NCBI GenBank assembly: GCA_043822625.1
Contig: JBDRBQ010000067.1
Coordinates: 1 to 61,346, forward strand
From: Candidatus Omnitrophota bacterium
Lineage (GTDB): Bacteria > Omnitrophota > Gorgyraeia > DAOVKU01
Length of the DNA stretch: 61,346 nucleotides
Direction of reading: 5' to 3'
Made by a program: the position numbers and the translations under genes
Part shown: one piece after another, positions 43,488-59,172 of the stretch
Position numbering within the stretch: the first letter of the stretch is position 1
How the letters are laid out: every line of letters begins with the position of its first letter
The notes under the pieces: generated by a model
What the model saw: only the letters and a program-made list of their open reading frames with translations
Told to the model about the DNA's origin: nothing
Database searches by the model: none

Positions 43488-43723
43488 CCGGCAATTTCCC
43501 TTTTTGGAAAAGAAGTACTATGGATCCAAGCAATTTCCCCACTTTGAAAAAGGGCAAAGTAACCAAGTAACTTCCCCACTTTGAAAAAGGGGCAAAGTAA
43601 CCAAGCAATTCCCCACTTTGAGAAGGGGCAAAAGTCCAAGCAATTCCCCCACTTTGAAAAGGGGCAAAAGTCCAAGCAATTCCCCCACTTTGAAAAAGGG
43701 GGGATAGGGGGGATTTATTATAA
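43488..43723. repeat. tandem array of about 36-bp units (one degenerate plus 5) ending GGGGGGATAGGGGGGATTTATTATAA
   Basis: Unit CCAAGCAATTCCCCCACTTTGAGAAGGGGCAAAAGT. Units start at 43526, 43563, 43601, 43636 and 43672. Confidence 0.9.
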
Positions 43724-44104
43724 TATGTTAAAATATAAATCTACTTTAAAACATAATGCGCGTCGATTACGAAAGGAAATGACAGATAGTGAAAAAAAAC
43801 TATGGTCAAGATTACGTGGTAAACAAATCATGGCTATTCAGTTTTATCGACAAAAACCCATAGGTCCTTATATTGTAGATTTTTATGCCCCTACGGCAAA
43901 GATTGTTGTAGAAGTGGATGGTTCGCAACACATGGAAGAAAGAGCGGAGCAAAAAGATATGCAACGAGATGATTACTTGAAGGATCAAAATTTATTTATA
44001 TTGCGCTTCAATAATTTACAAGTTTTACAAGAGTTGGATTCTGTAGTTGAAGTGATTTATCAAACAGTAAAAGAAAGGATGTAAATAAAAAACAAATCCC
44101 CCCC
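43707..44104 (+). mobile_element. candidate one-gene cassette: DUF559 ORF bounded by inverted GGGGGGATTT / AAATCCCCCCC
   Basis: GGGGGGATTT at 43707-43716 and AAATCCCCCCC at 44094-44104 are reverse complements. The cassette sits between two co-linear copies of the same repeat array. Confidence 0.4.
43725..44084 (+). CDS. DUF559 (Vsr-like PD-(D/E)xK) endonuclease-domain protein
   Basis: ARRLRKEMTDSEKKLW.RLR, FYRQKPIGPYIVDFY and KIVVEVDGSQH match the DUF559 pattern. The ORF is also open in frame upstream through the repeat array to 43581. Confidence 0.8.
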   Translation: MLKYKSTLKHNARRLRKEMTDSEKKLWSRLRGKQIMAIQFYRQKPIGPYIVDFYAPTAKIVVEVDGSQHMEERAEQKDMQRDDYLKDQNLFILRFNNLQVLQELDSVVEVIYQTVKERM

Positions 44105-44144: not shown

Positions 44145-44438
44145 TTCATCCCCCTTTTTCAATAGAGGTCCAAGTAACTTCCCCACTTTGAAAAAGGGGC
44201 AAAGTAACCAAGCAATTCCCCACTTTGAGAAGGGGCAAAAGTCCAAGCAATTCCCCCACTTTGAGAAGGGGCAAAAGTCCAAGCAATTCCCCCACTTTGA
44301 GAAGGGGCAAAAGTCCAAGCAATTCCCCCACTTTGAAAAAGGGCAAAAGTCCAAGCAATTCCCCCACTTTGAAAAAGGGCAAAAGTCCAAGCAATTCCCC
44401 CACTTTGAAAAAGGGGGGATAGGGGGGATTTATTATAA
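44145..44438. repeat. second tandem array of the same about 36-bp unit (one degenerate plus 7) with the identical terminal unit
   Basis: Units start at 44170, 44208, 44243, 44279, 44315, 44351 and 44387. The order of unit variants matches the upstream array. Confidence 0.9.
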
Positions 44439-46703: not shown

Positions 46704-48356
<1,653 letters not shown>

Positions 48357-48383: not shown

Positions 48384-48418
48384 AGCCCCGTTTGAATTTT
48401 TGAACGGGGCCTTTTTGT
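48384..48418 (+). terminator. intrinsic terminator after groEL
   Basis: GCCCCGTT / AACGGGGC stem followed by CTTTTTGTT. Confidence 0.8.
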
Positions 48419-48511
48419 TCTTAGCACCTCTTGCAAAATTTAACTTTTTAGTTTATACTATTAAAAATCTAATCTTATAAGTAGGCAATATTAATAAAAG
48501 AGGACAATATC

Positions 48512-48551
48512 AAATTTTTCCCCTTTGCAAAAGGGGGATTAATGGGGATTT
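48512..48551. repeat. AAATCCCC...GGGGATTT-family palindromic element
   Basis: AAATTTTTCCCCTTTGCAAAAGGGGGATTAATGGGGATTT. Confidence 0.75.
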
Positions 48552-48612
48552 GAAAAAGTCGTACACAGCATTAAAACAAAATACTATGTATTTATAAATG
48601 AGGTAATTTGCC

Positions 48613-48933
48613 ATGGTAACTTTCGAAGAATTTAAAAACATAGAAATAAAGACCGCGAAAATACTTGAAGCGCTGGATCATCCAAACGCCAATAAACTTC
48701 TTTTATTAAAAGTAGAAGTCGGCTCAGAACAAAAACAAATAGTTGCCGGCATAAAAGAACGTTATTCAAAAGAAGAATTAATAGGTAAAAATATCGTAAT
48801 TATCAACAATTTAGAACCGGTTTTACTCAGGGGAGAAAAAAGCGAAGGCATGCTTTTAGCGGCTCAGGACGAGAATACCTTATCTTTAATCGTGCCTGAA
48901 AAAGAGGTTAAAAGCGGCAGTACGGTAAAATAA
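48613..48933 (+). CDS. tRNA-binding (EMAP/CsaA-like OB-fold) domain protein
   Basis: F....I..A.I.......A.KL..L.V..G....QIV.GI...Y..E.L.GK..V...NL.P..LRG..S.GMLLAA is the typical tRNA_bind domain pattern. Confidence 0.8.
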   Translation: MVTFEEFKNIEIKTAKILEALDHPNANKLLLLKVEVGSEQKQIVAGIKERYSKEELIGKNIVIINNLEPVLLRGEKSEGMLLAAQDENTLSLIVPEKEVKSGSTVK

Positions 48934-48935
48934 AG

Positions 48936-49205
48936 ATGACACTAAAACCTGCCGATATAAGCGAAGAAGAATTTGAAGCTGTCTGCAAACATTGCGGCGT
49001 ATGCTGTGGCTCTACAGACGGGGACCCGTGCATTTATCTGGAACAAAAAGAAAACGGAAACTATTATTGCCGGATATATACCGAGAGATTGGGAAATAGA
49101 ATTACCGTAAAAGGCAACGTATTCAGATGTATTCCAATTGAACAGGCAATAAAATATCCGCATATTCAAGAAATTTGCGGATACGCTAAATTTTTAAAAA
49201 AATAA
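48936..49205 (+). CDS. small cysteine-cluster protein, YkgJ/UPF0153-like
   Basis: CKHCGVCCG ... C.YL......YYCRIY..R pattern. Confidence 0.5.
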   Translation: MTLKPADISEEEFEAVCKHCGVCCGSTDGDPCIYLEQKENGNYYCRIYTERLGNRITVKGNVFRCIPIEQAIKYPHIQEICGYAKFLKK

Positions 49206-49206
49206 A

Positions 49207-49605
49207 ATGCAGGAACAAAGACAAAATACACGAATAGGCGTAGGATTAAAAGTAAAAATGCGGGCTGAAAAATACGGCTTTGAAAATCAGGTAACTTCGG
49301 TAAATATCAGCGGCGGGGGCATTATGCTTGTTATCGAAAGAAGACTGCCTATAGGAGCGCAAGTTGACCTTGAAATTATTCTTTCCCCCAGAGAACATCC
49401 TATAAAAACAAGGGGTAAAATTGTCTGGATTAAGCCTGTTTCAGTAAAAAACACGGAAGATGAAGAAGCCGAGGTATTTTTTGAGAAAATGTATTGCGGC
49501 ATGGAATTTATCGAATTTACGGATATTAGCCCAGACGATCAAAGCCGGTTATTGAATTTCATTTTTAATAACATAAGCGGCGAGGCAGTAAAAATACGAA
49601 CTTAA
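49207..49605 (+). CDS. PilZ-domain protein
   Basis: RQNTR (RxxxR) and NISGGGIML (D/NxSxxG) c-di-GMP-binding motifs. Confidence 0.75.
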   Translation: MQEQRQNTRIGVGLKVKMRAEKYGFENQVTSVNISGGGIMLVIERRLPIGAQVDLEIILSPREHPIKTRGKIVWIKPVSVKNTEDEEAEVFFEKMYCGMEFIEFTDISPDDQSRLLNFIFNNISGEAVKIRT

Positions 49606-49685
49606 TATTCCCCTCTTTATTAAAAGAGGCCTGCCAGTATACTGTTGAGGCAGGTCTGCCGAAGGCACGATCCGCTTAAAAAATG

Positions 49686-50005
49686 CCCCCTCCCCCTTTG
49701 CGGGAGAGAGCAGGGGTGAGGCAATTAACTAACTTCCTTGTTCCCCATCTTCCCATCGTGGCAAAGAGTTGGGCCTGTCCCGCCGTAATGCGGGAGTGAG
49801 GCGTTAACACAGAGTTCCTTGTTCCCCATCTTCCCATCGTGGCAAAGAGTTGGGCCTGTCCCGCCGTAGTGCGGGAGTGAGGCAATTAACTAACTTCCTT
49901 GTTCCCCCTCGCCCTTTATGGGAGAGGGTTGGGGTGAGGCAATTAACTAACTTCCTTATTCCCCCTCGCCCTTTATGGGAGAGGGTTGGGGTGAGGGTTA
50001 TAATC
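49686..50005. repeat. array of 5 hairpin-containing units (57-81 bp) ending GGGGTGAGGGTTATAAT
   Basis: Units start at 49686, 49743, 49824, 49904 and 49961. Units 2 and 3 are near-identical 81-bp copies. The shared linker is GTGAGGCAATTAACTAACTTCCTTGTT. Palindromes of the type CCCTCGCCC-TTTAT-GGGAGAGGG are present. Confidence 0.88.
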
Positions 50006-50055
50006 TTATTTGTATTTATTTACCGCCGGATTTTAATTTTTAAGGAAAAATAATA

Positions 50056-50430
50056 ATGACTAAAAATAAAAAAAGAAAAAATATATGTTTAGAAGAATGT
50101 TCCGCTTTATGCTGTAAGTATTTTGCCATGGACATAACAAAACCCAGAACAAAATGGGATATCAACGATTTAAAGTGGAAATTAAAGCATAAAAATATAC
50201 ATGTTTATATAATAAATAAGAGATGGTGTCTTTTAATTACAAGCGACTGTATGTACCTGCAAGACGACAACAAATGCGGCATATATGAAACCAGGCCGGA
50301 TATATGCAGAAAATACAGCCACGTTAATTGCGAAAAAACCGGCCCATGGTACGATGTTTTCATTTCCAGTCCGGAAGAATTGGACAAACACCTCGAAAAA
50401 GAAAAGGTCGACAGAAAAAAGAAAAACTAA
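50056..50430 (+). CDS. YkgJ-family (UPF0153) cysteine-cluster protein
   Basis: C.E.CSALCC ... D.KCGIYETRPDICRKY. Confidence 0.7.
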   Translation: MTKNKKRKNICLEECSALCCKYFAMDITKPRTKWDINDLKWKLKHKNIHVYIINKRWCLLITSDCMYLQDDNKCGIYETRPDICRKYSHVNCEKTGPWYDVFISSPEELDKHLEKEKVDRKKKN

Positions 50431-50436
50431 TAAAAA

Positions 50437-50544
50437 CCCTGCCCGCATTATTTCCCATCTACCATTGTGGGGTGAGGCGTTAACACAGTTCCTTGTTCCC
50501 CCTCTCCACTTGAGGGAGAGGGCGGGGGTGAGGGGTATTATAAT
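50437..50544. repeat. two further units of the same hairpin-repeat family, ending GGGGTGAGGGGTATTATAAT
   Basis: CCCATCTACCATTGTGGGGTGAGGCGTTAACACAGTTCCTTGTT then CCCCCTCTCCACTTGAGGGAGAGGGCGGGGGTGAGGGG. Confidence 0.85.
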
Positions 50545-50631
50545 AAAAAAACGTAATAGCCTTATTTTTCAATCTCTCTTCAATAAAACCTGAAAAAATC
50601 GAACAAATCAAAAAAAATCAAAAAAAAATAC

Positions 50632-50660
50632 TTGACAAAAGCTTTAAAATCCAATATATT
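50632..50660 (+). promoter_or_regulatory. sigma70-like promoter (distal)
   Basis: TTGACA (50632-50637), 17 bp, TATATT (50655-50660), preceded by an A-rich tract. Confidence 0.4.
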
Positions 50661-50767
50661 TAAATTGTTTTATTAGTTGCTTTTCAGCAAAATTCTTTCT
50701 AAACTAATTTTTCTATAAAACGGGGGGATATTAAAAGCTCCTTGACTTACAAATAGAGAGATTATTA

Positions 50768-50796
50768 TTGACAAAGATACATCAAGTGTGTATAAT
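50768..50796 (+). promoter_or_regulatory. consensus sigma70 promoter (proximal) for the giant-gene leader
   Basis: TTGACA (50768-50773), exactly 17 bp, TATAAT (50791-50796). Confidence 0.6.
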
Positions 50797-50983
50797 TAGC
50801 CGTGCTTTCAGTTTGCCAATCGAAGTCGGCGAGAGCTTCACTTTTTCAACCTTATGGAAGGGTAAATTTTGAAGATTCAGGAAAAATACAAAACTAAAAA
50901 AACAGTCTGTGTTTTAGGCGCAAACGATTATATTGAAACTGAAAGTATAATTATTTCCGTTTTAAATAATAATTTCTTAAATC

Positions 50984-51017
50984 AGCCCGGTGATTAACTT
51001 CATCGGGCTTTTTGTTT
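50984..51017 (+). terminator. intrinsic terminator / attenuator inside the 5-prime leader of the giant gene
   Basis: AGCCCGGTGA / TCATCGGGCT stem (one G-U) followed by TTTTTGTTT. It ends 21 nt before ATG 51038 and upstream of its GAGGAG RBS. Confidence 0.6.
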
Positions 51018-51037
51018 AACAAAAATGAGGAGAAGAG

Positions 51038-54000
51038 ATGAAAATATTTAGAAAAAAAGAGGCATTTATCGAAATAATTATGTTATTATTGTTAACTGGC
51101 TTTATTTTCATGCCAGGCAAAGTTTCCGCGCAAAGCACGTGTAGTACCGAAACAAGACAAGGGAACGGGGGTGGCTGTGAAAGTGCAGACGACGGGGACC
51201 CTACGTTTATTCAAATAAGCCGAAGGGTTATACCCTGCGCTAATTATGATAAACCTAAATTAGAATTATCCAGCGGTTCTTCGACAAATATTCTTTTTTC
51301 GTATGACAAGTCTCTTATTACCACTACCGCTGAGATGGATGTTATATCAAGTTTACCTGATTGGCTTAATATTGCCGTGGATTCCGAAGTTACGGATTTA
51401 GGCGACCCAAACCTTAATTTTATAAAAATTACTTTTATGGTTACAGCTAATGTTTTGCCTAATTCACATAGTGAAATAAAACTCAGGCTTGTTGACGAAG
51501 GACCCGGAGAAACAAGGGCTGTAAAAAAAGTAATAATTACGGTTGATCGTACTCTTTTTTCCCAAATAAATGTTCCGGCAGAAGGTTCCTTGGTAAGAGC
51601 AGAAGTGCCTATTTTTGGCCTTGCTTACGGAGAAGATTTTTCTCATTATACGATAGAATTCGGCGAAGGGTATGACCCCAATATTTGGATACCTATTACC
51701 ACCTCCTATACACCTCAAACAAATGACACTTCTCCCATAGAATACAAATCCGGCGATCTTACTATTTACGGAAATTTAGCAACATGGGAAACCGGTCTAA
51801 CTGAGTATACTTATGGTACGTGGGCTACCGATCTAAATGGTGCATATACGGTACGTCTGAAGGTTTTTGACACCGCCGGCAATTATACTTATGATGAAAC
51901 AACTGTAGGGGTAGGCAGGGTATTAGGCGGAACATACAGCGGTACGGCTGTTAGTCCGGATACGAAAACGTTATTAATTGTTCCTGAGCAGGCCATCAAA
52001 GAAGATTTTGTGGTAGTGGGAATAGATACTGTCGCGAACCAAGTAGTTTCTATAGATGAAGGATACGATACGATAGGACAAATATATGAAATTCAGCCGC
52101 CGGGTTTGGAATTTACCAAAGATGTCGTGCTGGAAATGAATTATAGCGAAGATGACATAGCAGGTAAGGATGAAAGCAAAATAGGCATTTATGCCTACAA
52201 TCCCGATACGGGGCATTGGCAGTATCTCGCTACTAATAAATACTTAGAAGATAATAAGCTTACAACGGTTATCAGGAAAATCACATCCGGTTACGCGTAT
52301 TATGCAATATTGGAAAAAAGTTCTGTTCCCGCGAAACCGGTTTTGAACCAGCCCGATTCTCCCACGCAAGACAGATTTATTTCTATAAACGGAACCGCGG
52401 ATAGACAGGCGAAAGTCAAAATATCGGTAAATGGTATTGTAAAAAACACGTCTATTGCCGATGATAACGGAATATTTAGTTTAGATATCCTGCCGTTAGC
52501 TGACGGCATAAATACAATTACCGCCGTGGCTGTAGATGAATTCGACCGGCAGAGTCCGGAATCGGACGCGGTAACAGTAGAAGTGATAGAACCGCAAATA
52601 ACTGTAACAGAAATAAATTTCAAAGATAGCGTGTATAGCTCTGATTTCAGCGGCACAGTATACGCGGGAGATACTTTGTATTTAGAATTAATCGGCAGTG
52701 GCGGGGATATTTCTAAAATAGATAAAACAAGCATCACTTTAAAAAGCAGTATCACCGACACAACCGGCATAGAAATACAGTTGGCGGAAACCGGTGTAAA
52801 CAGCGACATCTATAGAGGGGAAGCGAAAGCCGCTGAACAAAGCTGTGAAATGACGAAATGTATAGCCTCGTGGCATGACGGAGAAACTATCACAGCTATA
52901 TCCAAAATCAATCCCGCTAAGACAGCGTCGGTAACCGTGGCCGACTTTTTGCCTCCCGCGGCACCCGCGATAACTTCGCTTACTCATACATCAATCTGCC
53001 AAAATACCTTTGAAGACGGTTCTGAACAGTGGAGAAACAGAAATGCCGAAGAAGGCGCGGAGCTTAATATCGATAATTTAGAAACTGTCGACGGCACCAA
53101 CTGTTTGAAATTAATAAACATAAATTACGGCGGAAATTTTGCTTCTACCGTAACCACAGTACCCTTTGATGCCGCGGAATATCCTTTAATAACTTTCGAT
53201 TACAAAATCACCGAAGACGTAAAAATAAATCTGCTCGTAAAAGTAAAAGACGATATGTGGTATGAAATAATTTTCAACAATGACGAAAAAAAATACTGGG
53301 TCGTAAACATGGAAGACATGGCGGCAATAGAGAACATAATCGCTGACGGAGAGTGGCACACGGCCGCGTTTGACTTATATAAGTTTCTCATAAATCACAG
53401 GGTTCGTTCCACGGAAATAGAAGAAGTAATAATGGCCGACTGGGACACTGCCGGTTTTATGAAGCTTATTTACGGCACCAATTACGCCGGTGCCTCTTAT
53501 TATGTAGACAATTTTATGATAACTAAACCCGCGTATGATGATACTAATCCAATATTCATCATAACACCACCGCATGATTTAAGCGGCATAGCCGGGTTTA
53601 GTTATAAATTAGATAATATTGCCGATACCCTACCTGACCAAATAATGGACACAGGCGAAACTACCCTAAATTATGAAAATTTATCCGACGAAACATATTA
53701 TTTTCACGCCCGCTGTGTGGATAATGCCGGAAACTGGGGGGAACCGAACCATTATAAAATAAAAATAGACACGCGGGGACCACAAGCTTCTTCGCCTAAT
53801 CCGGCTGACGAAAGCACTTGGGAAAACACTCCCGTAACCTTAGCGTTAACCGACAATAACGGCGCGGGTATAAACGAAGAAAGCATAAAGTTAAAAGTAA
53901 ACGACGTCATTTATGATACCGCCAACGGCGGATTGAGTTATGACAAAGAAACCGAAACCCTTGTCTTCGATCCAGCCTCGGTAACACCTAATCCAGCATC

Positions 54001-55870
54001 ATTTTCCGCCGGCGAAACGGTAACTTTTCAGTTATTGGAAGCAGAAGACAACATAGGACATTTATTACAAAATCAGTTAAGCTGGACTTATACAGCACAG
54101 TCACCCTTAAGCTTGAATACACCTACTAATCCCGACGGAGAAAACGGATGGTATGTAACAGCGCCTATGATAACTTTAAATCAACCGGATGCCCAAATAT
54201 TTTTTCATTGGAACAATGAACCGGAAGAAACATACACAGAACCCATAACTGCTCCCGAAGGAATTCATACACTAACATATAGAGTAGTAACTGTTGGCGG
54301 AGAAAAAGAATATACAAAATTATTTAACGTTGCTCCTTCACAGCCGGGGGTAATTCTAAAAACAAGCCCCGTTCAGCCGGACGGCGAAGACAGCTGGTAT
54401 AGAAGCAGTCCTTTAATAGAATTAATCAAAGAAGAATATTATATTCCCGGCGGACTAAAAGGGACGTATTGCGACAATATGGATTATACGGAACCGGTAT
54501 TAAGCCGTTTGGATTTTCGAATAAATTTCAACTGGGAAAACAACAGTCCTGATTATTCGATAGACAGAGATACATATTCGATAATGTGGCAAGGTAAAAT
54601 ATATATACCGCAAAGCGATACTTTCACGTTTAGCCTTATATCGGACGATTTATCACAGCTATTCATAGACGACGATTTAATTATCGATAAAAACGAATAT
54701 TATTATGGTCAGGCCGAAGGACAGGTGTTTTTACAACAGGGATACCATGATATACAAATAACCTATTTCGAATATTATGAAGATTCACAAATCTCACTCA
54801 GCTGGAGTTCAAGCGGCATAACTGGACAAATAGTACCGGCAAAATATCTTTACCATCAAGCGGAAGAACAGCCGGTTATTTATTATCACTGGAACGAAGA
54901 ACCTGCAGTGTTGTATACTCAACCTCTGGTCGCGCCTAAAGGGGTTAATACATTGTATTATTATACACAAGAACCCGCTGGTATTATAACTCAGGAAAAA
55001 GCGCAAGAGTTTAAAGTAATCGGTGTAACCGCGCAAGGTAAAGCCGGTTTTATAATAGACGCGGGACAAACAGTCAAATGGGAAAATTTTAACCTGACCG
55101 CGGCTGAAGACGGCACTAATACAGACGTAAGCATCAGAGCCAGAACAGCCGCCACAAAAGAAGAACTTACAGCTACTCAATGGTCGGATTATTATGGAAA
55201 AGATAATTCCGAGAACGGCTTCAGTCTCAATATCGATAATAATCGCTGGGCGGAAATAGAAATAACTTTAGAGAGCAACTCCATAGAATACCAAACTCCT
55301 ATATTAGAGTCGGCCGGCATAAGCTACGACACCATACCCGGTAAAATCACCGGTACTCTAATAGACGAAAAAGGCAATCCTGTAGAAGGCGCTGAAATAC
55401 AAATAGAAGGCACGGGAATAAGTGCGGTAACCGGCGTTGGCGGCACATATACTTTAATCGGAATACCCTTAGGCACAAATACCGTTATCGTTACAAAAGA
55501 AGGACTGCCAACTGTTTCTATAGCGGTAAATATACAAAGCGGCGACGAATTGCAAATAAATTTCTCTCCGAGGGAAGGCAAAATAAATTTAAAATACGAT
55601 GCCGAATTTTCCCGTTTCTGGGACATTATAAATTACAGTATTCACGAAGATGAAGCGAAAGGCACACACATAAAAATCCGAAGCCGCGCCGCGGAGACAG
55701 CAGAAGCATTAACAACCGCCGCATGGTCTGATTATTACCAAAGCAGTCCCGCGCAAATTACCGATGAATACGGGAATACAGCCTGCGGCAGATGGATAGA
55801 AATAGAAATAATTTTAAGTACAGCCACCTGTGAGGCAACACCGGCAATAGAGGAAATAACTATAGAGTAA
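51038..55870 (+). CDS. 1610-aa secreted multidomain protein (Ig-like, CBM-like, PA14, carboxypeptidase-regulatory-like domains)
   Basis: Signal peptide MKIFRKK...GKVSAQ. Ig-like module at about 52335-52590. Clear PA14 domain at about 54448-54860 (GLKGTYCDN...W.GKIYIP.SDTFTF...SDD...LFIDD). CarboxypepD_reg-like GKITGTLIDEKGNPVEGAEI at about 55340-55530. Internally repeated modules are present. Confidence 0.85.
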   Translation: MKIFRKKEAFIEIIMLLLLTGFIFMPGKVSAQSTCSTETRQGNGGGCESADDGDPTFIQISRRVIPCANYDKPKLELSSGSSTNILFSYDKSLITTTAEMDVISSLPDWLNIAVDSEVTDLGDPNLNFIKITFMVTANVLPNSHSEIKLRLVDEGPGETRAVKKVIITVDRTLFSQINVPAEGSLVRAEVPIFGLAYGEDFSHYTIEFGEGYDPNIWIPITTSYTPQTNDTSPIEYKSGDLTIYGNLATWETGLTEYTYGTWATDLNGAYTVRLKVFDTAGNYTYDETTVGVGRVLGGTYSGTAVSPDTKTLLIVPEQAIKEDFVVVGIDTVANQVVSIDEGYDTIGQIYEIQPPGLEFTKDVVLEMNYSEDDIAGKDESKIGIYAYNPDTGHWQYLATNKYLEDNKLTTVIRKITSGYAYYAILEKSSVPAKPVLNQPDSPTQDRFISINGTADRQAKVKISVNGIVKNTSIADDNGIFSLDILPLADGINTITAVAVDEFDRQSPESDAVTVEVIEPQITVTEINFKDSVYSSDFSGTVYAGDTLYLELIGSGGDISKIDKTSITLKSSITDTTGIEIQLAETGVNSDIYRGEAKAAEQSCEMTKCIASWHDGETITAISKINPAKTASVTVADFLPPAAPAITSLTHTSICQNTFEDGSEQWRNRNAEEGAELNIDNLETVDGTNCLKLININYGGNFASTVTTVPFDAAEYPLITFDYKITEDVKINLLVKVKDDMWYEIIFNNDEKKYWVVNMEDMAAIENIIADGEWHTAAFDLYKFLINHRVRSTEIEEVIMADWDTAGFMKLIYGTNYAGASYYVDNFMITKPAYDDTNPIFIITPPHDLSGIAGFSYKLDNIADTLPDQIMDTGETTLNYENLSDETYYFHARCVDNAGNWGEPNHYKIKIDTRGPQASSPNPADESTWENTPVTLALTDNNGAGINEESIKLKVNDVIYDTANGGLSYDKETETLVFDPASVTPNPASFSAGETVTFQLLEAEDNIGHLLQNQLSWTYTAQSPLSLNTPTNPDGENGWYVTAPMITLNQPDAQIFFHWNNEPEETYTEPITAPEGIHTLTYRVVTVGGEKEYTKLFNVAPSQPGVILKTSPVQPDGEDSWYRSSPLIELIKEEYYIPGGLKGTYCDNMDYTEPVLSRLDFRINFNWENNSPDYSIDRDTYSIMWQGKIYIPQSDTFTFSLISDDLSQLFIDDDLIIDKNEYYYGQAEGQVFLQQGYHDIQITYFEYYEDSQISLSWSSSGITGQIVPAKYLYHQAEEQPVIYYHWNEEPAVLYTQPLVAPKGVNTLYYYTQEPAGIITQEKAQEFKVIGVTAQGKAGFIIDAGQTVKWENFNLTAAEDGTNTDVSIRARTAATKEELTATQWSDYYGKDNSENGFSLNIDNNRWAEIEITLESNSIEYQTPILESAGISYDTIPGKITGTLIDEKGNPVEGAEIQIEGTGISAVTGVGGTYTLIGIPLGTNTVIVTKEGLPTVSIAVNIQSGDELQINFSPREGKINLKYDAEFSRFWDIINYSIHEDEAKGTHIKIRSRAAETAEALTTAAWSDYYQSSPAQITDEYGNTACGRWIEIEIILSTATCEATPAIEEITIE

Positions 55871-55873
55871 AAA

Positions 55874-55967
55874 CAGTAACTAGTAAATGGCAAATAGTAG
55901 ATGGTTAAATGGTTGTTAGTGAATAGTTTTTTATTCACCATTAAACTATTAAACCATTCACTAAATC
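55874..55967. repeat. intergenic hairpin built from forward and reverse heptamer arms
   Basis: Forward ...TAGTAAATGGCAAATAGTAGATGGTTAAATGGTTGTTAGTGAATAG, loop TTTTTT, reverse ATTCACCATTAAACTATTAAACCATTCACTAAATC, then the RBS. Confidence 0.8.
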
Positions 55968-55982
55968 AGGAGGATAAATAAA

Positions 55983-57239
55983 ATGAAACACAAGTTGGTG
56001 CTGTTAATATCACTAATAGTTTTAAGTTTAAGCACGGCTATTTCAGTTTGTGCTGCTGTGAAAACATGGACCACCGATGCGGACTGGAAAGAGGGAGAAA
56101 CGCAAAAAGTAGAAATCATAAACACCGGAGAACCGGCAAGCCTTATACTTGCCGCCTGTCCCGATATTAAAATTATAAACATAGACGGAAATTTTGAGGA
56201 CTGGCAGGGTATTCGCGGACTCGACACGTTTCCTCAGCCTGCCGAAGAAACAGGAGATAGTACTCTCGCTTCGTTAGATATAGAGAATATATGGGCCGCC
56301 AATAACGATAAATATCTATATCTCAAATATCAATGCTCCGCCGATATAGACTTTAACGAAAACAATTATTATTTTTACTTAGATACCGACAATAATTCCG
56401 CCTCCGGATTTAAAAGTTCCACAAACGATTGGGCAGTAGGCGCGGATTACCTCATTCAAAACGCGAACCTATTCATATATACCGGAACCGGCACAGACTG
56501 GAGCTGGAATTGGATAAATACACTCAACTATTTCATAGTTGGCAATACCGTAGAAATAGCTATACAAAGAAAAGATATGGATGAAACCCTTTACAACGGA
56601 GAACAAACAAACCTTCTCGCGGTTAGCGAAACCGGTATGGCAAAGTATGATTTTGCCCCCAATGATAAAGAGAACCAGGTCTATTATTACACCTATGCCA
56701 AACCCATAATGACGGTTGACGGAGATACACAAGACTGGCCGGGCATAGAACCATTAGTTATCGACCCGCAGGATATGGTAGATCAGGACGTAGACATAAA
56801 AGCGGGATACGCTGTCAGTGACGAAAATAATTTATACCTAAGATTAGATGTGTACGGAGATATAAACCCCATTGGACACCGCTATATTATTTACCTTGAC
56901 ACAGATCAGGATAATGCTACCGGACTGACTTACGGCTGGTGGGCAACCGGAGCCGATTACAGAATTTACATAGATGAATGGAGCATAGGATTACAGAAAT
57001 TTATGGGAACCACCCAAAGCGAAGATACATGGGGGTGGAACGGACAATTGTACCAATTGGAAAACACAAACACAAAATGGGCATGGAATGCCGAATCAGG
57101 CATACTAGAATGCGCTATAAGAAAAACCGACATAGGCGAAAACAATGCCGCAAACATACTCTGGCGTTTATCAGGAGACGATTCAGCGCCGTATTACACA
57201 AATACGGTAACGTATCAATATTTAAAAAGCAGTGAATAG
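55983..57239 (+). CDS. 418-aa secreted protein with an internally duplicated domain of unknown function
   Basis: AGGAGG RBS and signal peptide MKHKLVLLISLIVLSLSTAISVCAA. Two homologous halves each start with DG(N/D)..DW.GI and contain YLDTD.N..(S/T)G and GADY.I. Confidence 0.75.
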   Translation: MKHKLVLLISLIVLSLSTAISVCAAVKTWTTDADWKEGETQKVEIINTGEPASLILAACPDIKIINIDGNFEDWQGIRGLDTFPQPAEETGDSTLASLDIENIWAANNDKYLYLKYQCSADIDFNENNYYFYLDTDNNSASGFKSSTNDWAVGADYLIQNANLFIYTGTGTDWSWNWINTLNYFIVGNTVEIAIQRKDMDETLYNGEQTNLLAVSETGMAKYDFAPNDKENQVYYYTYAKPIMTVDGDTQDWPGIEPLVIDPQDMVDQDVDIKAGYAVSDENNLYLRLDVYGDINPIGHRYIIYLDTDQDNATGLTYGWWATGADYRIYIDEWSIGLQKFMGTTQSEDTWGWNGQLYQLENTNTKWAWNAESGILECAIRKTDIGENNAANILWRLSGDDSAPYYTNTVTYQYLKSSE

Positions 57240-57305
57240 TGGATAGTGAATGGTGAATAGTAGTTTTAAAAGCTTTTACCATCAACCATTAAACCATTCA
57301 CCAAT
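57231..57305. repeat. intergenic hairpin built from forward and reverse heptamer arms
   Basis: AGTGAATAGTGGATAGTGAATGGTGAATAGTAG, TTTTAAAAGCTTTTA, CCATCAACCATTAAACCATTCACCAAT. The TAG stop of the upstream gene (57237-57239) lies in the first heptamer. A 32-bp core (57246-57277) is identical to 58935-58966. Confidence 0.8.
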
Positions 57306-57322
57306 AACAAGGACTAAACACA

Positions 57323-58492
57323 ATGAAGTTAAAAAACAAAATATTATTCTTATTGCCTCTAATAAGCATTCTTTTCTCCGTTCGCGCCAACGCCGGCGAT
57401 TTGGAAAATATCTGGAAACAAAGAATAGAAGGGGGAATATTAACTACCGCGGTAAATACGACACCCATTGTAGTTACTCAAAAAGAAATAATATTCATGG
57501 ATGAAAAGGGTGCAATAGTAAATACTATACCTCTTAACGAAAATCAATTCGCGGTAATATCGCGGGACACAAACACTTTCACCCTTGTAACACATCGCCC
57601 TCACATAAAAGAAATAATACAAAAAACAGAACTCTTTATTTCCTCCGCATTGTTATCTTGTTCCACATCGTCATCATCTTCCACGTTGTCATCCTGCGGC
57701 TTGACCGCGGGATCCATCACCCCCCTCTGCACCATAGAAGAAAACGGTTATCCTTATCTCAGCCCAGACGGCACATGGCTGGCGATGATAAGCAAACCGA
57801 AAAGCAAAATTAGTTTCTATACAAAAGAAGGTAAAAAACTACGCGAATACGATTTTCCGAACATTAAAAATTCCGCCCTTGCTTTTTCAGGCGACAGCCG
57901 CTATTGCGCTATAAACACCTCTAATATTCAGGGGAATGAAACCGGAAGCCGCGTAATTCTATTCAACGATAAAGGCAAAAAAATCTGGCAATATGATCAT
58001 CCCCGCTCAACCGCCGGAGAACTTAATCTTTCTCAAAATGGTGAAACCGTAGTATATTCATCGGAAAATGAGCTTATTTCCATAAATAAAAAGGGTAGAG
58101 AAAACTGGACAAAATCTTTAACCCCCGGCGGCATAAAAACAGCTCTAAGCCCAAATCAAAAATATCTGGCCATAAGCCGCAGAGAGGACAACAGTATAAC
58201 TTTATACAACGCCCAAGATGGAACGGAAATATGGAAAAAACAGATTACAGGCCTCTTAGGATACAACAGCCCATTCACGTCATTAGAAGTTTTAGACAAC
58301 GGTGCTGTGATAACCGCCATAGCCAAAAGCTGGTCCATTAGAAACGACCAGAGCTATTTATACATCATAAAAGACAAGCAAATAGCCTCATACACTGAAT
58401 TCACGGCACCTTGGATAAAAGCCATAACCAAAAACGACAATCGGCATATAATCGTTTACTCGAAAGAATTTGTGGAAAAATACAGGAAATAA
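57323..58492 (+). CDS. 389-aa secreted protein, beta-propeller-like (PQQ/WD-like repeats)
   Basis: Signal peptide MKLKNKILFLLPLISILFSVRANA. Recurrent (D/K)G..(I/N)W(K/Q/T) strand motifs (KGKKIWQYDH, KGRENWTKSL, DGTEIWKKQI). The fold call is an inference. Confidence 0.65.
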   Translation: MKLKNKILFLLPLISILFSVRANAGDLENIWKQRIEGGILTTAVNTTPIVVTQKEIIFMDEKGAIVNTIPLNENQFAVISRDTNTFTLVTHRPHIKEIIQKTELFISSALLSCSTSSSSSTLSSCGLTAGSITPLCTIEENGYPYLSPDGTWLAMISKPKSKISFYTKEGKKLREYDFPNIKNSALAFSGDSRYCAINTSNIQGNETGSRVILFNDKGKKIWQYDHPRSTAGELNLSQNGETVVYSSENELISINKKGRENWTKSLTPGGIKTALSPNQKYLAISRREDNSITLYNAQDGTEIWKKQITGLLGYNSPFTSLEVLDNGAVITAIAKSWSIRNDQSYLYIIKDKQIASYTEFTAPWIKAITKNDNRHIIVYSKEFVEKYRK

Positions 58493-58503
58493 AAAAACGC
58501 AAA

Positions 58504-58535
58504 TATATAGTAAATAGTTGATGGTGAATAGTAAC
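58504..58535. repeat. forward heptamer run preceding the four-helix-bundle gene
   Basis: ATATAGTAAATAGTTGATGGTGAATAGTAAC. Confidence 0.7.
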
Positions 58536-58549
58536 AGAGAGGATAAAAA

Positions 58550-58912
58550 ATGGACAACAAAAAAATACAAAATTTTAAAGATTTGAAAATTTGGCAAGAA
58601 TCTATGGAAATAGTAGAAGAAATATATAAAGTGACTAAAGATTTTCCAAAGAATGAAATATACGGCATTATTACTCAGTTAAGACGTTCAGCTGTATCTA
58701 TTCCCTCGAATATAGCCGAAGGTTTTATGCGCCAGTATAATAAAGAATTTAAACAATTTTTATTCATAGCTTTAGGTAGCAGCGCGGAAGCTGAAACACA
58801 GTTGATAATTTCCAGTAAATTAAGTTATATAACTAAGACTAAAAATGATACTTTATTAAAAAAAATCGAGAGATTGAACAAAATGATAATGACATTAATC
58901 AAATGTTTATGA
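58550..58912 (+). CDS. four-helix-bundle protein of the 23S rRNA intervening-sequence (S23p) family
   Basis: F.DL.IWQ.S.....EIY..T..FP..E.YG...QLRRSAVSIPSNIAEG......KEF..FL.IALGS..E..TQL is the family signature. Confidence 0.85.
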   Translation: MDNKKIQNFKDLKIWQESMEIVEEIYKVTKDFPKNEIYGIITQLRRSAVSIPSNIAEGFMRQYNKEFKQFLFIALGSSAEAETQLIISSKLSYITKTKNDTLLKKIERLNKMIMTLIKCL

Positions 58913-58916
58913 AAAA

Positions 58917-59172
58917 CAGTGAATAGTAGATGGTGAATGGTGAATAGTAGTTTTAAAAGCTTTTACGATTAACCATTAAACTGTTTTTCAACTATTCACC
59001 ATCGAACCATTAAACTATTGAACCATTAAACTGTTTTTCAACTATTCACCATCGAACCATTAAACTATTGAACCATTAAACTGTTTTTCAACTATTCACC
59101 ATTGAACCATTAAACTATTGAACCATTAAACTGTTTTTCAACTATTCACCATTGAACCATTAAACCATTCAC
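58917..59172. repeat. forward heptamer run followed by a 50-bp tandem repeat (4 copies) of reverse-arm sequence
   Basis: CAGTGAATAGTAGATGGTGAATGGTGAATAGTAG at 58917-58950. Unit CCATTAAACTGTTTTTCAACTATTCACCATCGAACCATTAAACTATTGAA starts at 58973, 59023, 59073 and 59123. Confidence 0.9.

What the first reader, a model, noticed from the sequence alone, without database searches (positions are those of the whole stretch)
50768..51037. Perfect consensus promoter followed by a 235-nt structured leader ending in an intrinsic terminator, just before the giant secreted-protein gene
TTGACA-17 bp-TATAAT (50768-50796) is the only perfect sigma70 consensus I found in the window. From the predicted start (about 50803), CTTTCAGTTT (50805-50814) can pair with AAACTGAAAG (50936-50945), closing a domain of about 120 nt. 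A strong terminator hairpin plus U-tract follows at 50984-51017, only 21 nt before ATG 51038 and upstream of its RBS. This layout fits either a riboswitch or attenuator controlling the 4.8-kb gene, or a free-standing sRNA of about 215 nt.

A 42-codon TTG ORF (50869-50997) has GGAAGGG 6 nt upstream and ends with its TAA at the loop and descending arm of the terminator, so translation-coupled attenuation is also possible. I could not match the leader to any riboswitch class by eye. A PilZ gene lies 1.4 kb upstream, so a second-messenger link is conceivable, but nothing in the sequence supports it.
Basis: partly seen in the sequence, partly recalled or inferred. Interest (0 to 1): 0.65.

Follow-up and report, generated by a model that had tools for sequence, protein, structure and literature searches.

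The report
Small RNA unit gating secreted-protein operon
In an uncultured groundwater bacterium (Candidatus Omnitrophota), a very strong promoter drives a roughly 215-base non-coding RNA that stops at a strong terminator just before a large secreted-protein gene; a second copy of this RNA unit exists in the same samples, so it is probably a real small-RNA or leader element of an ordinary kind, and it does not look like a riboswitch.

Summary
TTGACA-17-TATAAT at 50768-50796 is the only perfect sigma-70 consensus in 61 kb. A -17.8 kcal/mol terminator (50984-51009) plus U-tract ends 21 nt before ATG 51038. The 42-codon TTG ORF is there.

New evidence comes from Logan contigs of four groundwater and biofilm metagenomes. 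They hold a second copy (V2) of the unit. It matches from at least 50772 into the U-tract and then continues into unrelated sequence. The promoter is 100% identical, the first 45 nt 93%, the last 57 nt 96%, and the middle 114 nt only 72%. No second variant of the flanking genes appears, so V2 is probably a paralogue in the same genome.

The proposed 10-bp closing helix is within chance (p about 0.07) and is not cleanly kept in V2. No Rfam family matches and no antiterminator pairing is predicted. The ORF stays open in V2 but shows no coding-type substitution pattern.

Best reading: a discrete small-RNA unit, one of at least two copies. Its default-on terminator gates the downstream operon, which has no promoter of its own. 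A riboswitch is disfavoured. Translation-coupled or factor-dependent antitermination remains possible. No RNA data or distant homologues were available. Interest is modest.

The parts
50632..50660 (+). Secondary promoter-like site TTGACA-17-TATATT (11 of 12), preceded by A-tracts at 50603-50630. It may be a tandem upstream promoter. Its transcripts would also have to pass the terminator.
   Evidence: sequence
50768..50796 (+). Perfect sigma-70-type promoter TTGACA-17-TATAAT. Bases 50772-50801 are 100% identical in the second copy, V2.
   Evidence: only match in the window, 0.05 expected
50802..51017 (+). Predicted non-coding transcript of about 215 nt. The start is inferred at purine 50802 (G here, A in V2) or at 50804. 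The 3' end lies in the U-tract.
   Evidence: Inferred from promoter and terminator geometry. Fold z = -3.6. V2 fold z = -3.0. No Rfam match.
50804..50836 (+). 5' hairpin P1 (GCUUUC.GUU.GC / GU.CGGCGAGAGC), inside the 45-nt 5' block that is 93% conserved.
   Evidence: -8.7 and -6.6 kcal/mol in the two copies; the only change turns G-C into G-U
50841..50862 (+). Hairpin P2, CUUUUUC paired with GGAAGGG. It sequesters the Shine-Dalgarno-like motif of the small ORF.
   Evidence: two one-sided, wobble-compatible changes in V2
50869..50997 (+). 42-codon TTG ORF. It reads AAU AAU AAU (50965-50973) as Asn-Asn-Asn, enters the terminator's 5' arm and stops in the loop. It is probably not a conserved peptide.
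   Evidence: Open in V2, with P = 0.22 under neutrality. Substitutions fall 8/4/5 by codon position. About 1 change in 25 is synonymous (my reading of the sequences printed).
50936..50964 (+). Hairpin P4. It uses the 3' strand of the proposed closing helix. In V2 it becomes a 12-bp stem of -11 kcal/mol, and one A-U pair (50947/50952) becomes G-C.
50961..50983 (+). Conserved A/U-rich stretch UUUAAAUAAUAAUUUCUUAAAUC immediately 5' of the terminator. It is predicted to be single-stranded.
   Evidence: one 1-nt deletion in V2
50984..51017 (+). Intrinsic terminator: 10-bp stem with 6 G-C pairs, 6-nt loop, then U5-G-U3. It is conserved in V2 apart from A50984G, which changes the basal pair from A-U to G-U.
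51027..55870 (+). GAGGAG ribosome-binding site (51027-51032) and a 1610-aa secreted multidomain protein gene (ATG 51038). The protein has a signal peptide and Big_13, Big_6, PA14 and CarboxypepD_reg domains. There is no promoter of its own.

Best explanation
The stretch 50768-51017 is a self-contained, strongly promoted transcription unit. It makes a non-coding RNA of about 215 nt. At least two diverged copies exist in this Omnitrophota population, probably in the same genome.

The RNA is a string of local hairpins (P1, P2, P4). A conserved A/U-rich single strand and a strong intrinsic terminator follow them.

No RNA-encoded antiterminator is detectable, so termination is the default. Most transcripts should therefore end at about 51013-51017 as a small RNA.

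The operon starts 21 nt later: a 1610-aa secreted protein, a 418-aa protein and a beta-propeller protein. It has no promoter of its own. It can only be expressed by the fraction of polymerases that read through.

The unit therefore acts as an attenuating gate between a maximal-strength promoter and a costly operon. At the same time it produces a small RNA whose conserved 5' and 3' ends suggest a function of its own.

**Shown by sequence:** promoter, terminator, lack of an intervening promoter, the second copy and its conservation pattern.

**Inferred:** the transcription start, termination in vivo, read-through, and any trans activity.
For: - The promoter is unique in the window and perfect.
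- The terminator has -17.8 kcal/mol and a U-tract. It is one of very few strong terminators here and the only one not directly behind a protein gene.
- The only promoter-like site near the ATG is 51016-45, whose transcripts would start after the ATG.
- Copy V2 occurs in runs X1-X4. Homology runs from at least 50772 into the U-tract and then changes to unrelated sequence.
- Substitutions cluster in the middle: 30 of 34 fall in 114 nt (Fisher p = 1e-7). This conserved-ends, variable-centre pattern resembles paralogous sRNAs such as OmrA/OmrB. The resemblance is from my own knowledge.
- The flanking genes and the large gene show no second variant at 80% identity or more. V2's word depth is 3.1-4.2, against about 4-9 for the genome. 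This argues for a paralogue rather than a sister species.
- Both copies fold better than shuffles, z = -3.6 and -3.0.
- The terminator's GCCCGG core stays unpaired (P = 0.01-0.17) before the 3' arm is made, in both copies.
Against: - No expression data exist; no RNA runs hold the stretch.
- Only two sequences are available, so covariation is inconclusive.
- The identical ends could reflect recent gene conversion rather than selection.
- A terminator 21 nt ahead of a promoterless gene is the classical signature of a regulated cis-leader. A purely constitutive leak may therefore be too simple.
- What follows V2 is known for only 30 nt. It contains an ATG about 20 nt after the U-tract, so V2 could also be a leader.
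- No homologue was found in any other Omnitrophota locus.
Confidence: 0.5

Rival explanations
1. Translation-coupled attenuation of the pyrBI type. A ribosome translating the 42-codon leader ORF runs into the terminator's 5' arm. When it follows the polymerase closely, it prevents hairpin formation. Read-through into the large gene then depends on tight transcription-translation coupling, or on stalling at the Asn codons just before the stem.
For: - The ORF has a purine-rich motif 6 nt upstream. It ends in the terminator loop, and the terminator lies 21 nt before the gene.
- No RNA-only antiterminator exists, so an external agent is needed for regulated read-through.
- The start codon and open frame are kept in V2.
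- A distant homologue of the large gene (L001) also has a small ORF. It reads AAU AAU AAU as Asn3 and runs through a terminator upstream of the gene.
Against: - Keeping the ORF in V2 happens in 22% of neutral simulations.
- Substitutions show no codon-position bias (8/4/5), and nearly all change the amino acid.
- The start is a TTG, and its Shine-Dalgarno-like motif is buried in hairpin P2.
- The most conserved block, the 5' 45 nt, lies outside the ORF.
- The L001 ORF has a 1-nt spacer between GGAGG and ATG. Its terminator may belong to a neighbouring IS element.
- Asn makes up only 5.8% of the large protein.
Confidence: 0.15
2. A factor-dependent antitermination leader. An RNA-binding antiterminator, or a NusG-paralogue type of processive antitermination system, recognises the conserved 5' hairpin region. 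It lets the polymerase pass the terminator and then the long operon. V2 would control another gene of the same regulon.
For: - Default-on terminator with no RNA antiterminator.
- The 5' 45 nt and the promoter are the best conserved parts in both copies.
- The gene has no promoter of its own.
- A third locus shares the promoter including its spacer, 33 of 40 positions. This hints at co-regulation.
- Long operons for surface structures are often under such control. This rests on my own knowledge of RfaH/ops, LoaP and EAR.
Against: - No candidate factor gene was identified in the window.
- No match to the Rfam models for such leaders.
- Resemblances to ops or boxA are at chance level by eye.
- Nothing is known of V2's downstream gene.
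Confidence: 0.15
3. A metabolite or second-messenger riboswitch (for example c-di-GMP). Its aptamer would be the domain of about 140 nt closed by 50805-14/50936-45.
For: - Leader plus terminator layout.
- Stable fold.
- A PilZ gene lies 1.2-1.6 kb upstream.
- Surface-protein genes are known riboswitch targets in other phyla (own knowledge).
Against: - No Rfam family matches, even at E up to 10.
- The closing helix is at chance level. It has two broken pairs in V2, whose own minimum-energy fold does not contain it.
- The putative aptamer core is the most variable part, 72% identity. That is the opposite of riboswitch paralogues.
- No switching antiterminator is predicted.
Confidence: 0.04
4. 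No dedicated RNA function. The promoter and terminator would be parts of a repeated intergenic cassette, or a fortuitous arrangement. The terminator would mainly end transcription from the upstream genes (48613-50430).
For: - The intergenic region is full of repeats, including a REP-like element at 50469-50540 and arrays at 49716-49996.
- No strong + strand terminator lies between 48410 and 50984.
- The left border of V2 homology is unknown.
- No homologues were found outside this population.
Against: - A perfect promoter is expected only 0.05 times per window. It sits in the right orientation and at the right distance from one of the few strong terminators.
- The 3' border of homology coincides with the U-tract.
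- Conservation is strongly non-uniform.
Confidence: 0.1

Closest known systems
Paralogous trans-acting sRNAs with conserved ends, such as OmrA/OmrB in enterobacteria (own knowledge)
   Same: - It has its own strong promoter and intrinsic terminator.
- There are two copies, nearly identical at the 5' and 3' ends and divergent in the centre.
- An A/U-rich single strand sits next to the terminator hairpin.
   Different: - There is no sequence relation.
- Chaperone, targets and expression are all unknown.
- This copy sits 21 nt ahead of a gene that has no promoter, which is unusual for free-standing sRNAs.
- The copies are not adjacent in the window.
Terminated 5' leaders that double as small RNAs, such as the SreA/SreB riboswitch-derived sRNAs of Listeria, and premature-termination products seen by Term-seq (own knowledge)
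   Same: - A promoter-proximal intrinsic terminator lies just upstream of the ribosome-binding site of the regulated gene.
- The terminated product is a discrete small RNA.
   Different: - No aptamer or known sensing domain is present.
- No alternative antiterminator structure is predicted.
E. coli pyrBI leader, translation-coupled attenuation (own knowledge)
   Same: - A leader ORF of about 40-45 codons runs into the attenuator hairpin.
- The attenuator lies about 20 nt upstream of the structural gene.
- The leader contains U-rich tracts.
   Different: - The downstream gene is a secreted multidomain protein, not a pyrimidine enzyme.
- The start codon is TTG, with a sequestered Shine-Dalgarno-like motif.
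- There is no evidence of translation and no codon-level conservation.
c-di-GMP-I/II riboswitches upstream of adhesin and surface-protein genes
   Same: The gene context is similar (a large secreted protein), and the leader ends in a terminator.
   Different: - No covariance-model match.
- The core is not conserved.
- No switching helices are predicted.

Membership tests
Riboswitch (any Rfam class, including c-di-GMP-I/II and T-box) | Match to the aptamer covariance model | tested here: not met
   The Rfam 15 gathering scan of the window finds only a tRNA. The E-value scan of 50400-51200 up to E = 10 lists no riboswitch, T-box or 6S family.
Riboswitch (any Rfam class, including c-di-GMP-I/II and T-box) | The sensing core is more conserved than the expression platform among copies | tested here: not met
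   The middle 114 nt are 72% identical between the window and V2. The promoter is 100%, the 5' 45 nt 93% and the 3' 57 nt 96% identical.
Riboswitch (any Rfam class, including c-di-GMP-I/II and T-box) | Mutually exclusive antiterminator and terminator pairing | tested here: not met
   When the transcript is folded up to the loop, the GCCCGG core of the 5' arm has pairing probability 0.01-0.17 in both copies. The best upstream duplexes differ between the copies.
Riboswitch (any Rfam class, including c-di-GMP-I/II and T-box) | Ligand binding | not testable with these tools
   Needs in-line probing or ITC.
Leader-peptide attenuator (trp/his type) | Short translated ORF with a run of regulatory codons in the leader | tested here: inconclusive
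   An ORF is present. It has AAU x3 in frame at 50965-73 and a fourth AAU at 50980. Translation is unknown, and the ORF is retained in V2 with P = 0.22 under neutrality.
Leader-peptide attenuator (trp/his type) | Alternative 2:3 antiterminator hairpin | tested here: not met
Leader-peptide attenuator (trp/his type) | The regulated operon concerns the sensed amino acid | tested here: not met
   The downstream gene encodes a secreted Ig-like/PA14 protein with 5.8% Asn.
pyrBI-type translation-coupled attenuator | The leader ORF extends into the terminator, which lies shortly before the structural gene | tested here: met
   The ORF at 50869-50997 covers the 5' arm at 50984-50993. The U-tract ends 21 nt before the ATG.
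pyrBI-type translation-coupled attenuator | The ORF is translated and coupling controls read-through | not testable with these tools
   No RNA or ribosome data exist.
Free-standing trans-acting sRNA | Own promoter and own intrinsic terminator delimiting a non-coding unit | tested here: met
   There is no coding signal in the substitutions.
Free-standing trans-acting sRNA | Homology between copies is confined to the transcription unit | tested here: inconclusive
   The 3' border lies in the U-tract. The 5' border is unknown because the contigs start at 50772 or 50791.
Free-standing trans-acting sRNA | Expressed as a discrete RNA; target or chaperone interaction | not testable with these tools
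   No RNA runs.
6S RNA | Match to the 6S models; long closed helix with a central bubble | tested here: not met
   No 6S hit at E up to 10. The two copies share no common end-to-end helix.
Type I toxin mRNA | Small hydrophobic (transmembrane) peptide conserved among copies | tested here: not met
   The peptide LKIQEKYKTKKTVCVLGANDYIETESIIISVLNNNFLNQPGD is hydrophilic, and nearly every change in V2 is non-synonymous.

The most novel reading that the evidence does not exclude
The unit is the founding member of an Omnitrophota-specific class of leader RNAs. In this class a default-on terminator is overridden by a ribosome loaded on the leader ORF, or by a dedicated antitermination factor bound to the conserved 5' hairpin. 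Polymerase would then enter very long secreted-protein operons only when it is already coupled and protected. This would be a licensing step for the transcription of large genes in a phylum noted for them.
Probability: 0.1. Interest if true: 0.6.

Novelty: new member of a known kind. Interest (0 to 1): 0.3.

Why it matters
In two full-text searches I found no paper describing non-coding RNAs or transcription control in Omnitrophota. The phylum is uncultured and is known for very long surface or secreted proteins.

A verified sRNA or attenuator at the head of such an operon would give a first handle on how these costly genes are switched. It would also add a new RNA family to databases.

As it stands, this is a well-delimited but unvalidated candidate of a familiar kind. 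The practical gain from this check is threefold:
- The riboswitch reading can be set aside.
- A second copy exists, which helps define the element.
- The element's borders are now fixed.

Tried and rejected
**Searches for homologues that found nothing**
- Rfam gathering and permissive scans returned only sub-threshold hits that look like noise: RsaE and Plastid-rpl20 on the wrong strand, and VrrA through the terminator only.
- Genome-contig scans with the large protein and with the upstream CxxCxxCC protein found no relatives.
- A metagenome-contig scan with a degenerate pattern from the window/V2 block gave 8 hits. All were chance matches to the pattern only.
- Two viral-contig scans with the conserved 5' and 3' blocks found nothing.
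- Exact look-ups of the window's large protein and CxxCxxCC protein are not on record.

**Upstream regions of homologues of the large gene (48-51% identity; L001-L006)**
- Only L001/L002 shows a terminator upstream: hairpin, AAUAAUAAU, terminator, then 90 nt to the gene.
- BLAST and nhmmer find no significant similarity there, and it sits next to a transposase gene.
- L003, L004 and L005 have no such terminator.

**Closest GroEL relatives (87%; L015-L018)**
- Synteny is lost after groEL, and there is no homologue of the RNA.

**Other checks**
- Beta-propeller homologues (L019, L020) lack the start of the large gene.
- No RNA sequencing runs were available.
- No further variants appear in X5, X6, X7 or X12.
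- A sister-species explanation for V2 is rejected, because no second variant of the flanking genes or the large gene is seen at 80% identity or more.
- The 11-nt perfect complementarity of 50947-57 to codons 12-15 of the large gene (I5), and the long discontinuous sRNA/RBS duplexes, are not conserved in V2. I treated them as chance.
- By-eye resemblances to ops (GGCGAGAGC) and boxA (UUUAACAA) are too weak to use.
- The literature has nothing on Omnitrophota sRNAs or leaders.

Full report

Yes. The sequence shows TTGACA at 50768-50773, a 17-nt spacer and TATAAT at 50791-50796. A pattern search finds this as the only TTGACA-N16-18-TATAAT in the 61,346-base window, where shuffles give 0.05.

The terminator scan reports AGCCCGGTGA-TTAACT-TCATCGGGCT at 50984-51009, followed by TTTTTGTTT. 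Its folding energy is -17.8 kcal/mol. Across the whole window only three or four terminator-like sites are of comparable quality. They are 48385 just after groEL, 33768 just after a gene, and a REP-like hairpin on the minus strand. The site at 50984 is the only one that does not sit directly behind a protein gene.

ATG 51038 lies 21 nt after the U-tract, with GAGGAG at 51027-51032. The predicted 218-nt RNA folds at -53.5 kcal/mol, z = -3.6 against dinucleotide shuffles.

The 10-nt perfect complement 50805-14/50936-45 exists. A perfect stem of that length also occurs in 7-8% of shuffles, so on its own it is not evidence.

The 42-codon TTG ORF at 50869-50997, the GGAAGGG motif 6 nt upstream and the stop in the terminator loop are all as described. 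The PilZ gene is at 49207-49605.

**2. Organism and context**

GroEL (46716-48356) is 79-90% identical to many Candidatus Omnitrophota GroELs. The DNA is found only in groundwater and biofilm metagenomes. Almost all genes are on the + strand.

The gene order is:
- groES-groEL, followed by a terminator;
- a tRNA-binding-domain protein, a small Cys-rich protein and PilZ;
- REP-like repeat arrays;
- a CxxCxxCC-domain protein (50056-50430), then one more REP-like copy;
- the unit studied here;
- a 1610-aa protein with a signal peptide and Big_13, Big_6, PA14 and CarboxypepD_reg domains;
- a 418-aa secreted protein and a beta-propeller protein.

In the closest available relatives (87% GroEL; L015-L018), groEL is followed by quite different genes. 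The segment from about 48.4 to 58.9 kb is therefore lineage-specific.

**3. Known families**

Rfam 15 finds only a tRNA at gathering thresholds. A permissive scan of 50400-51200 up to E = 10 returns only low-scoring hits. Most are driven by the terminator or lie on the wrong strand. No riboswitch, T-box, 6S, ANTAR or leader family comes near its threshold. ARAGORN finds only the tRNA.

**4. A second copy (the main new result)**

I laid the Logan contigs of runs X1-X4 on 50700-51100 at 80% or more likeness. Besides window-identical contigs, this shows a second sequence, V2.

- It appears as X2 record 3 (431 nt), X3 record 8 (669 nt), X4 record 9 and X1 record 2.
- It aligns from 50772 or 50791, which are contig ends, to 51017.
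- It has 36 substitutions and 3 single-base indels.
- All four contigs then continue into the same unrelated sequence, TTTAACTTGAGCCTTTGTGATGTTGAAAAA. That sequence is absent from the window.

I rebuilt V2 from the difference table. The rebuild reproduces an independent 30-nt loose end from X4. Two substitutions are not listed and must lie in 51014-51017. V2's last four bases are therefore uncertain.

Conservation is strongly uneven:

| Segment | Identity |
|---|---|
| Promoter 50772-50801 | 100% |
| 50802-50846 | 93% |
| 50847-50960 | 72% |
| 50961-51017 | 96% |

Thirty of the 34 mapped substitutions fall in the middle 114 nt (Fisher p = 1e-7).

The same runs show no second variant at 80% or more for the neighbouring genes at 48.6-50.4 kb. 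They show none for the large gene and its partners at 51.0-58.5 kb either. V2's word depth is 3.1, 4.2 and 2.4 in the three runs, of the same order as the genome's 4-9, 3-7.5 and 3.3. V2 is thus most simply a paralogous copy elsewhere in the same genome, not the orthologue of a sister species.

A third locus shares only the promoter, 33 of 40 positions over 50759-50798.

**5. Structure**

With two sequences, covariation has little power.

Eleven are invariant, three have wobble-compatible changes and two are broken in V2. V2's own minimum-energy fold does not contain it.

What the two copies share is a set of local hairpins:
- P1 at 50804-50836 is almost invariant.
- P2 at 50841-50862 pairs CUUUUUC with GGAAGGG.
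- A weak P3 follows.
- P4 at 50936-50964 uses the 3' strand of the proposed closing helix. In V2 it becomes a 12-bp stem of -11 kcal/mol, and one A-U pair becomes G-C.
- A conserved A/U-rich single strand and the terminator complete the RNA.

This is the look of a small RNA made of stem-loops, not of a multi-helix aptamer.

**6. Is there a switch?**

I folded each copy only up to the terminator loop, that is, before the 3' arm exists. The GCCCGG core of the 5' arm stays unpaired (P = 0.01-0.17). The best upstream partners are weak and differ between the copies. No RNA-encoded antiterminator is visible, so termination should be the default.

**7. The small ORF**

In V2 the TTG and the open frame are kept, and the frame runs on through the hairpin. 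A neutral simulation placed the observed number of substitutions at random in the variable segment. It keeps both the start codon and the open frame in 22% of trials.

The substitutions fall 8/4/5 on codon positions 1/2/3. Only about one in 25 is synonymous (my reading of the sequences). The peptide is hydrophilic. It is therefore not a conserved protein.

Translation as such cannot be excluded. AAU AAU AAU (50965-73) is read as Asn3 in the window and in V2. It is also read that way in an analogous small ORF upstream of a distant homologue of the large gene (L001). A spanning ORF can only read that motif as Asn3 or as Ile-Ile, because the third frame gives stop codons. The L001 ORF has a poor ribosome-binding-site spacing, and its terminator lies next to a transposase gene. 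I rate this as weak support.

**8. How the large gene is transcribed**

The promoter scan lists no site of 9 of 12 or better between 50800 and 51016 on the + strand. The site at 51016-51045 would start transcripts after the ATG. The N-terminus encoded from 51038 is a typical signal peptide with a good ribosome-binding site. Every transcript of the operon must therefore cross the terminator. This is the firmest argument that the unit also acts in cis as a gate.

**9. Synthesis**

The best-supported picture is a discrete, strongly promoted RNA unit of about 215 nt, present in at least two copies. Its terminator is on by default. Most transcripts should end as a small RNA, and a minority should read through into the promoterless secreted-protein operon.

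The conserved-ends, variable-centre pattern resembles paralogous trans-acting sRNAs (my knowledge of OmrA/OmrB). The 21-nt spacing to a promoterless gene resembles cis attenuators. These two readings are compatible, as in leader-derived sRNAs.

Regulated read-through by a translating ribosome (pyrBI-like) or by a protein factor remains open. A metabolite riboswitch is unlikely. I put 0.5 on the combined sRNA-and-gate reading. The rivals get 0.15 for translation coupling, 0.15 for factor-dependent antitermination, 0.04 for a riboswitch and 0.1 for no dedicated function.

**10. Limits**

- No RNA data exist.
- No homologue was found beyond this population, despite scans of genomes, metagenomes and viral contigs, and of 20 fetched loci.
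- The left border and the downstream gene of V2 are unknown.
- Literature searches found nothing on Omnitrophota small RNAs or leaders.

**11. Verdict**

This is a new candidate member of a known kind, of modest interest (0.3) until expression is shown.

Noticed in passing
window 49716-49996 and 50469-50540: A REP-like repeat family (GTGAGGCAATTAAC...CCCCTC...GAGGG). It forms arrays of 81- and 57-nt units between PilZ and the CxxCxxCC gene, with one more copy after that gene. The copy at 50500-50540 has 25-30x word depth in metagenomes, against 2-3x for its flanks, so it is a high-copy element.
   Followed up: partly
window 43525-43700 and 44168-44416: Two arrays of a 36-nt tandem repeat flank a DUF559-like ORF (43581-44084). 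They generate long spurious repeat-peptide ORFs on both strands.
   Followed up: no
window 58971-59169: Four near-perfect 50-nt tandem repeats lie downstream of the operon. Each contains a TTGAAA-16-AATAGT promoter-like site on the minus strand.
   Followed up: no
window 50603-50660: A second near-consensus promoter (TTGACA-17-TATATT) lies 136 nt upstream of the perfect one. It is preceded by A-tracts that resemble an UP element. This may be a tandem promoter arrangement.
   Followed up: partly
window 51867-51895: TTGACA-17-TATGAT (11 of 12) lies on the + strand inside the large gene, about 830 nt into the coding sequence.
   Followed up: no
window 50759-50798 (matching contigs in X1, X3, X7, X12): A third locus shares only the promoter, including its spacer, at 33 of 40 positions. 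It then reads TAGATATGACAATTACACCAGAACAATTTA, with an ATG 8-9 nt after the -10 box. This may be a leaderless mRNA driven by a related promoter.
   Followed up: partly
window 48400-58900 compared with L015-L018: Relatives with 87% identical GroEL keep birA-coaX-groES-groEL. After that they continue with IMPDH-like and Asp/Asn-tRNA synthetase genes. The segment holding PilZ, the RNA unit and the secreted-protein operon is lineage-specific.
   Followed up: partly
L001 9564-14290, L004 7917-11468, L019 2108-7103, L020 140-5108: In L019 and L020 the beta-propeller gene is followed by a large RHS/YD-repeat protein gene. In L001 and L004, which also hold the large gene, a large gene with no recorded domain hits sits in the same place. 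The window has no such gene after its beta-propeller gene.
   Followed up: no
window about 55961-55964: Contigs in X2 and X3 branch into two other sequences just after the stop of the large gene. This indicates strain-level variation in what follows it.
   Followed up: no
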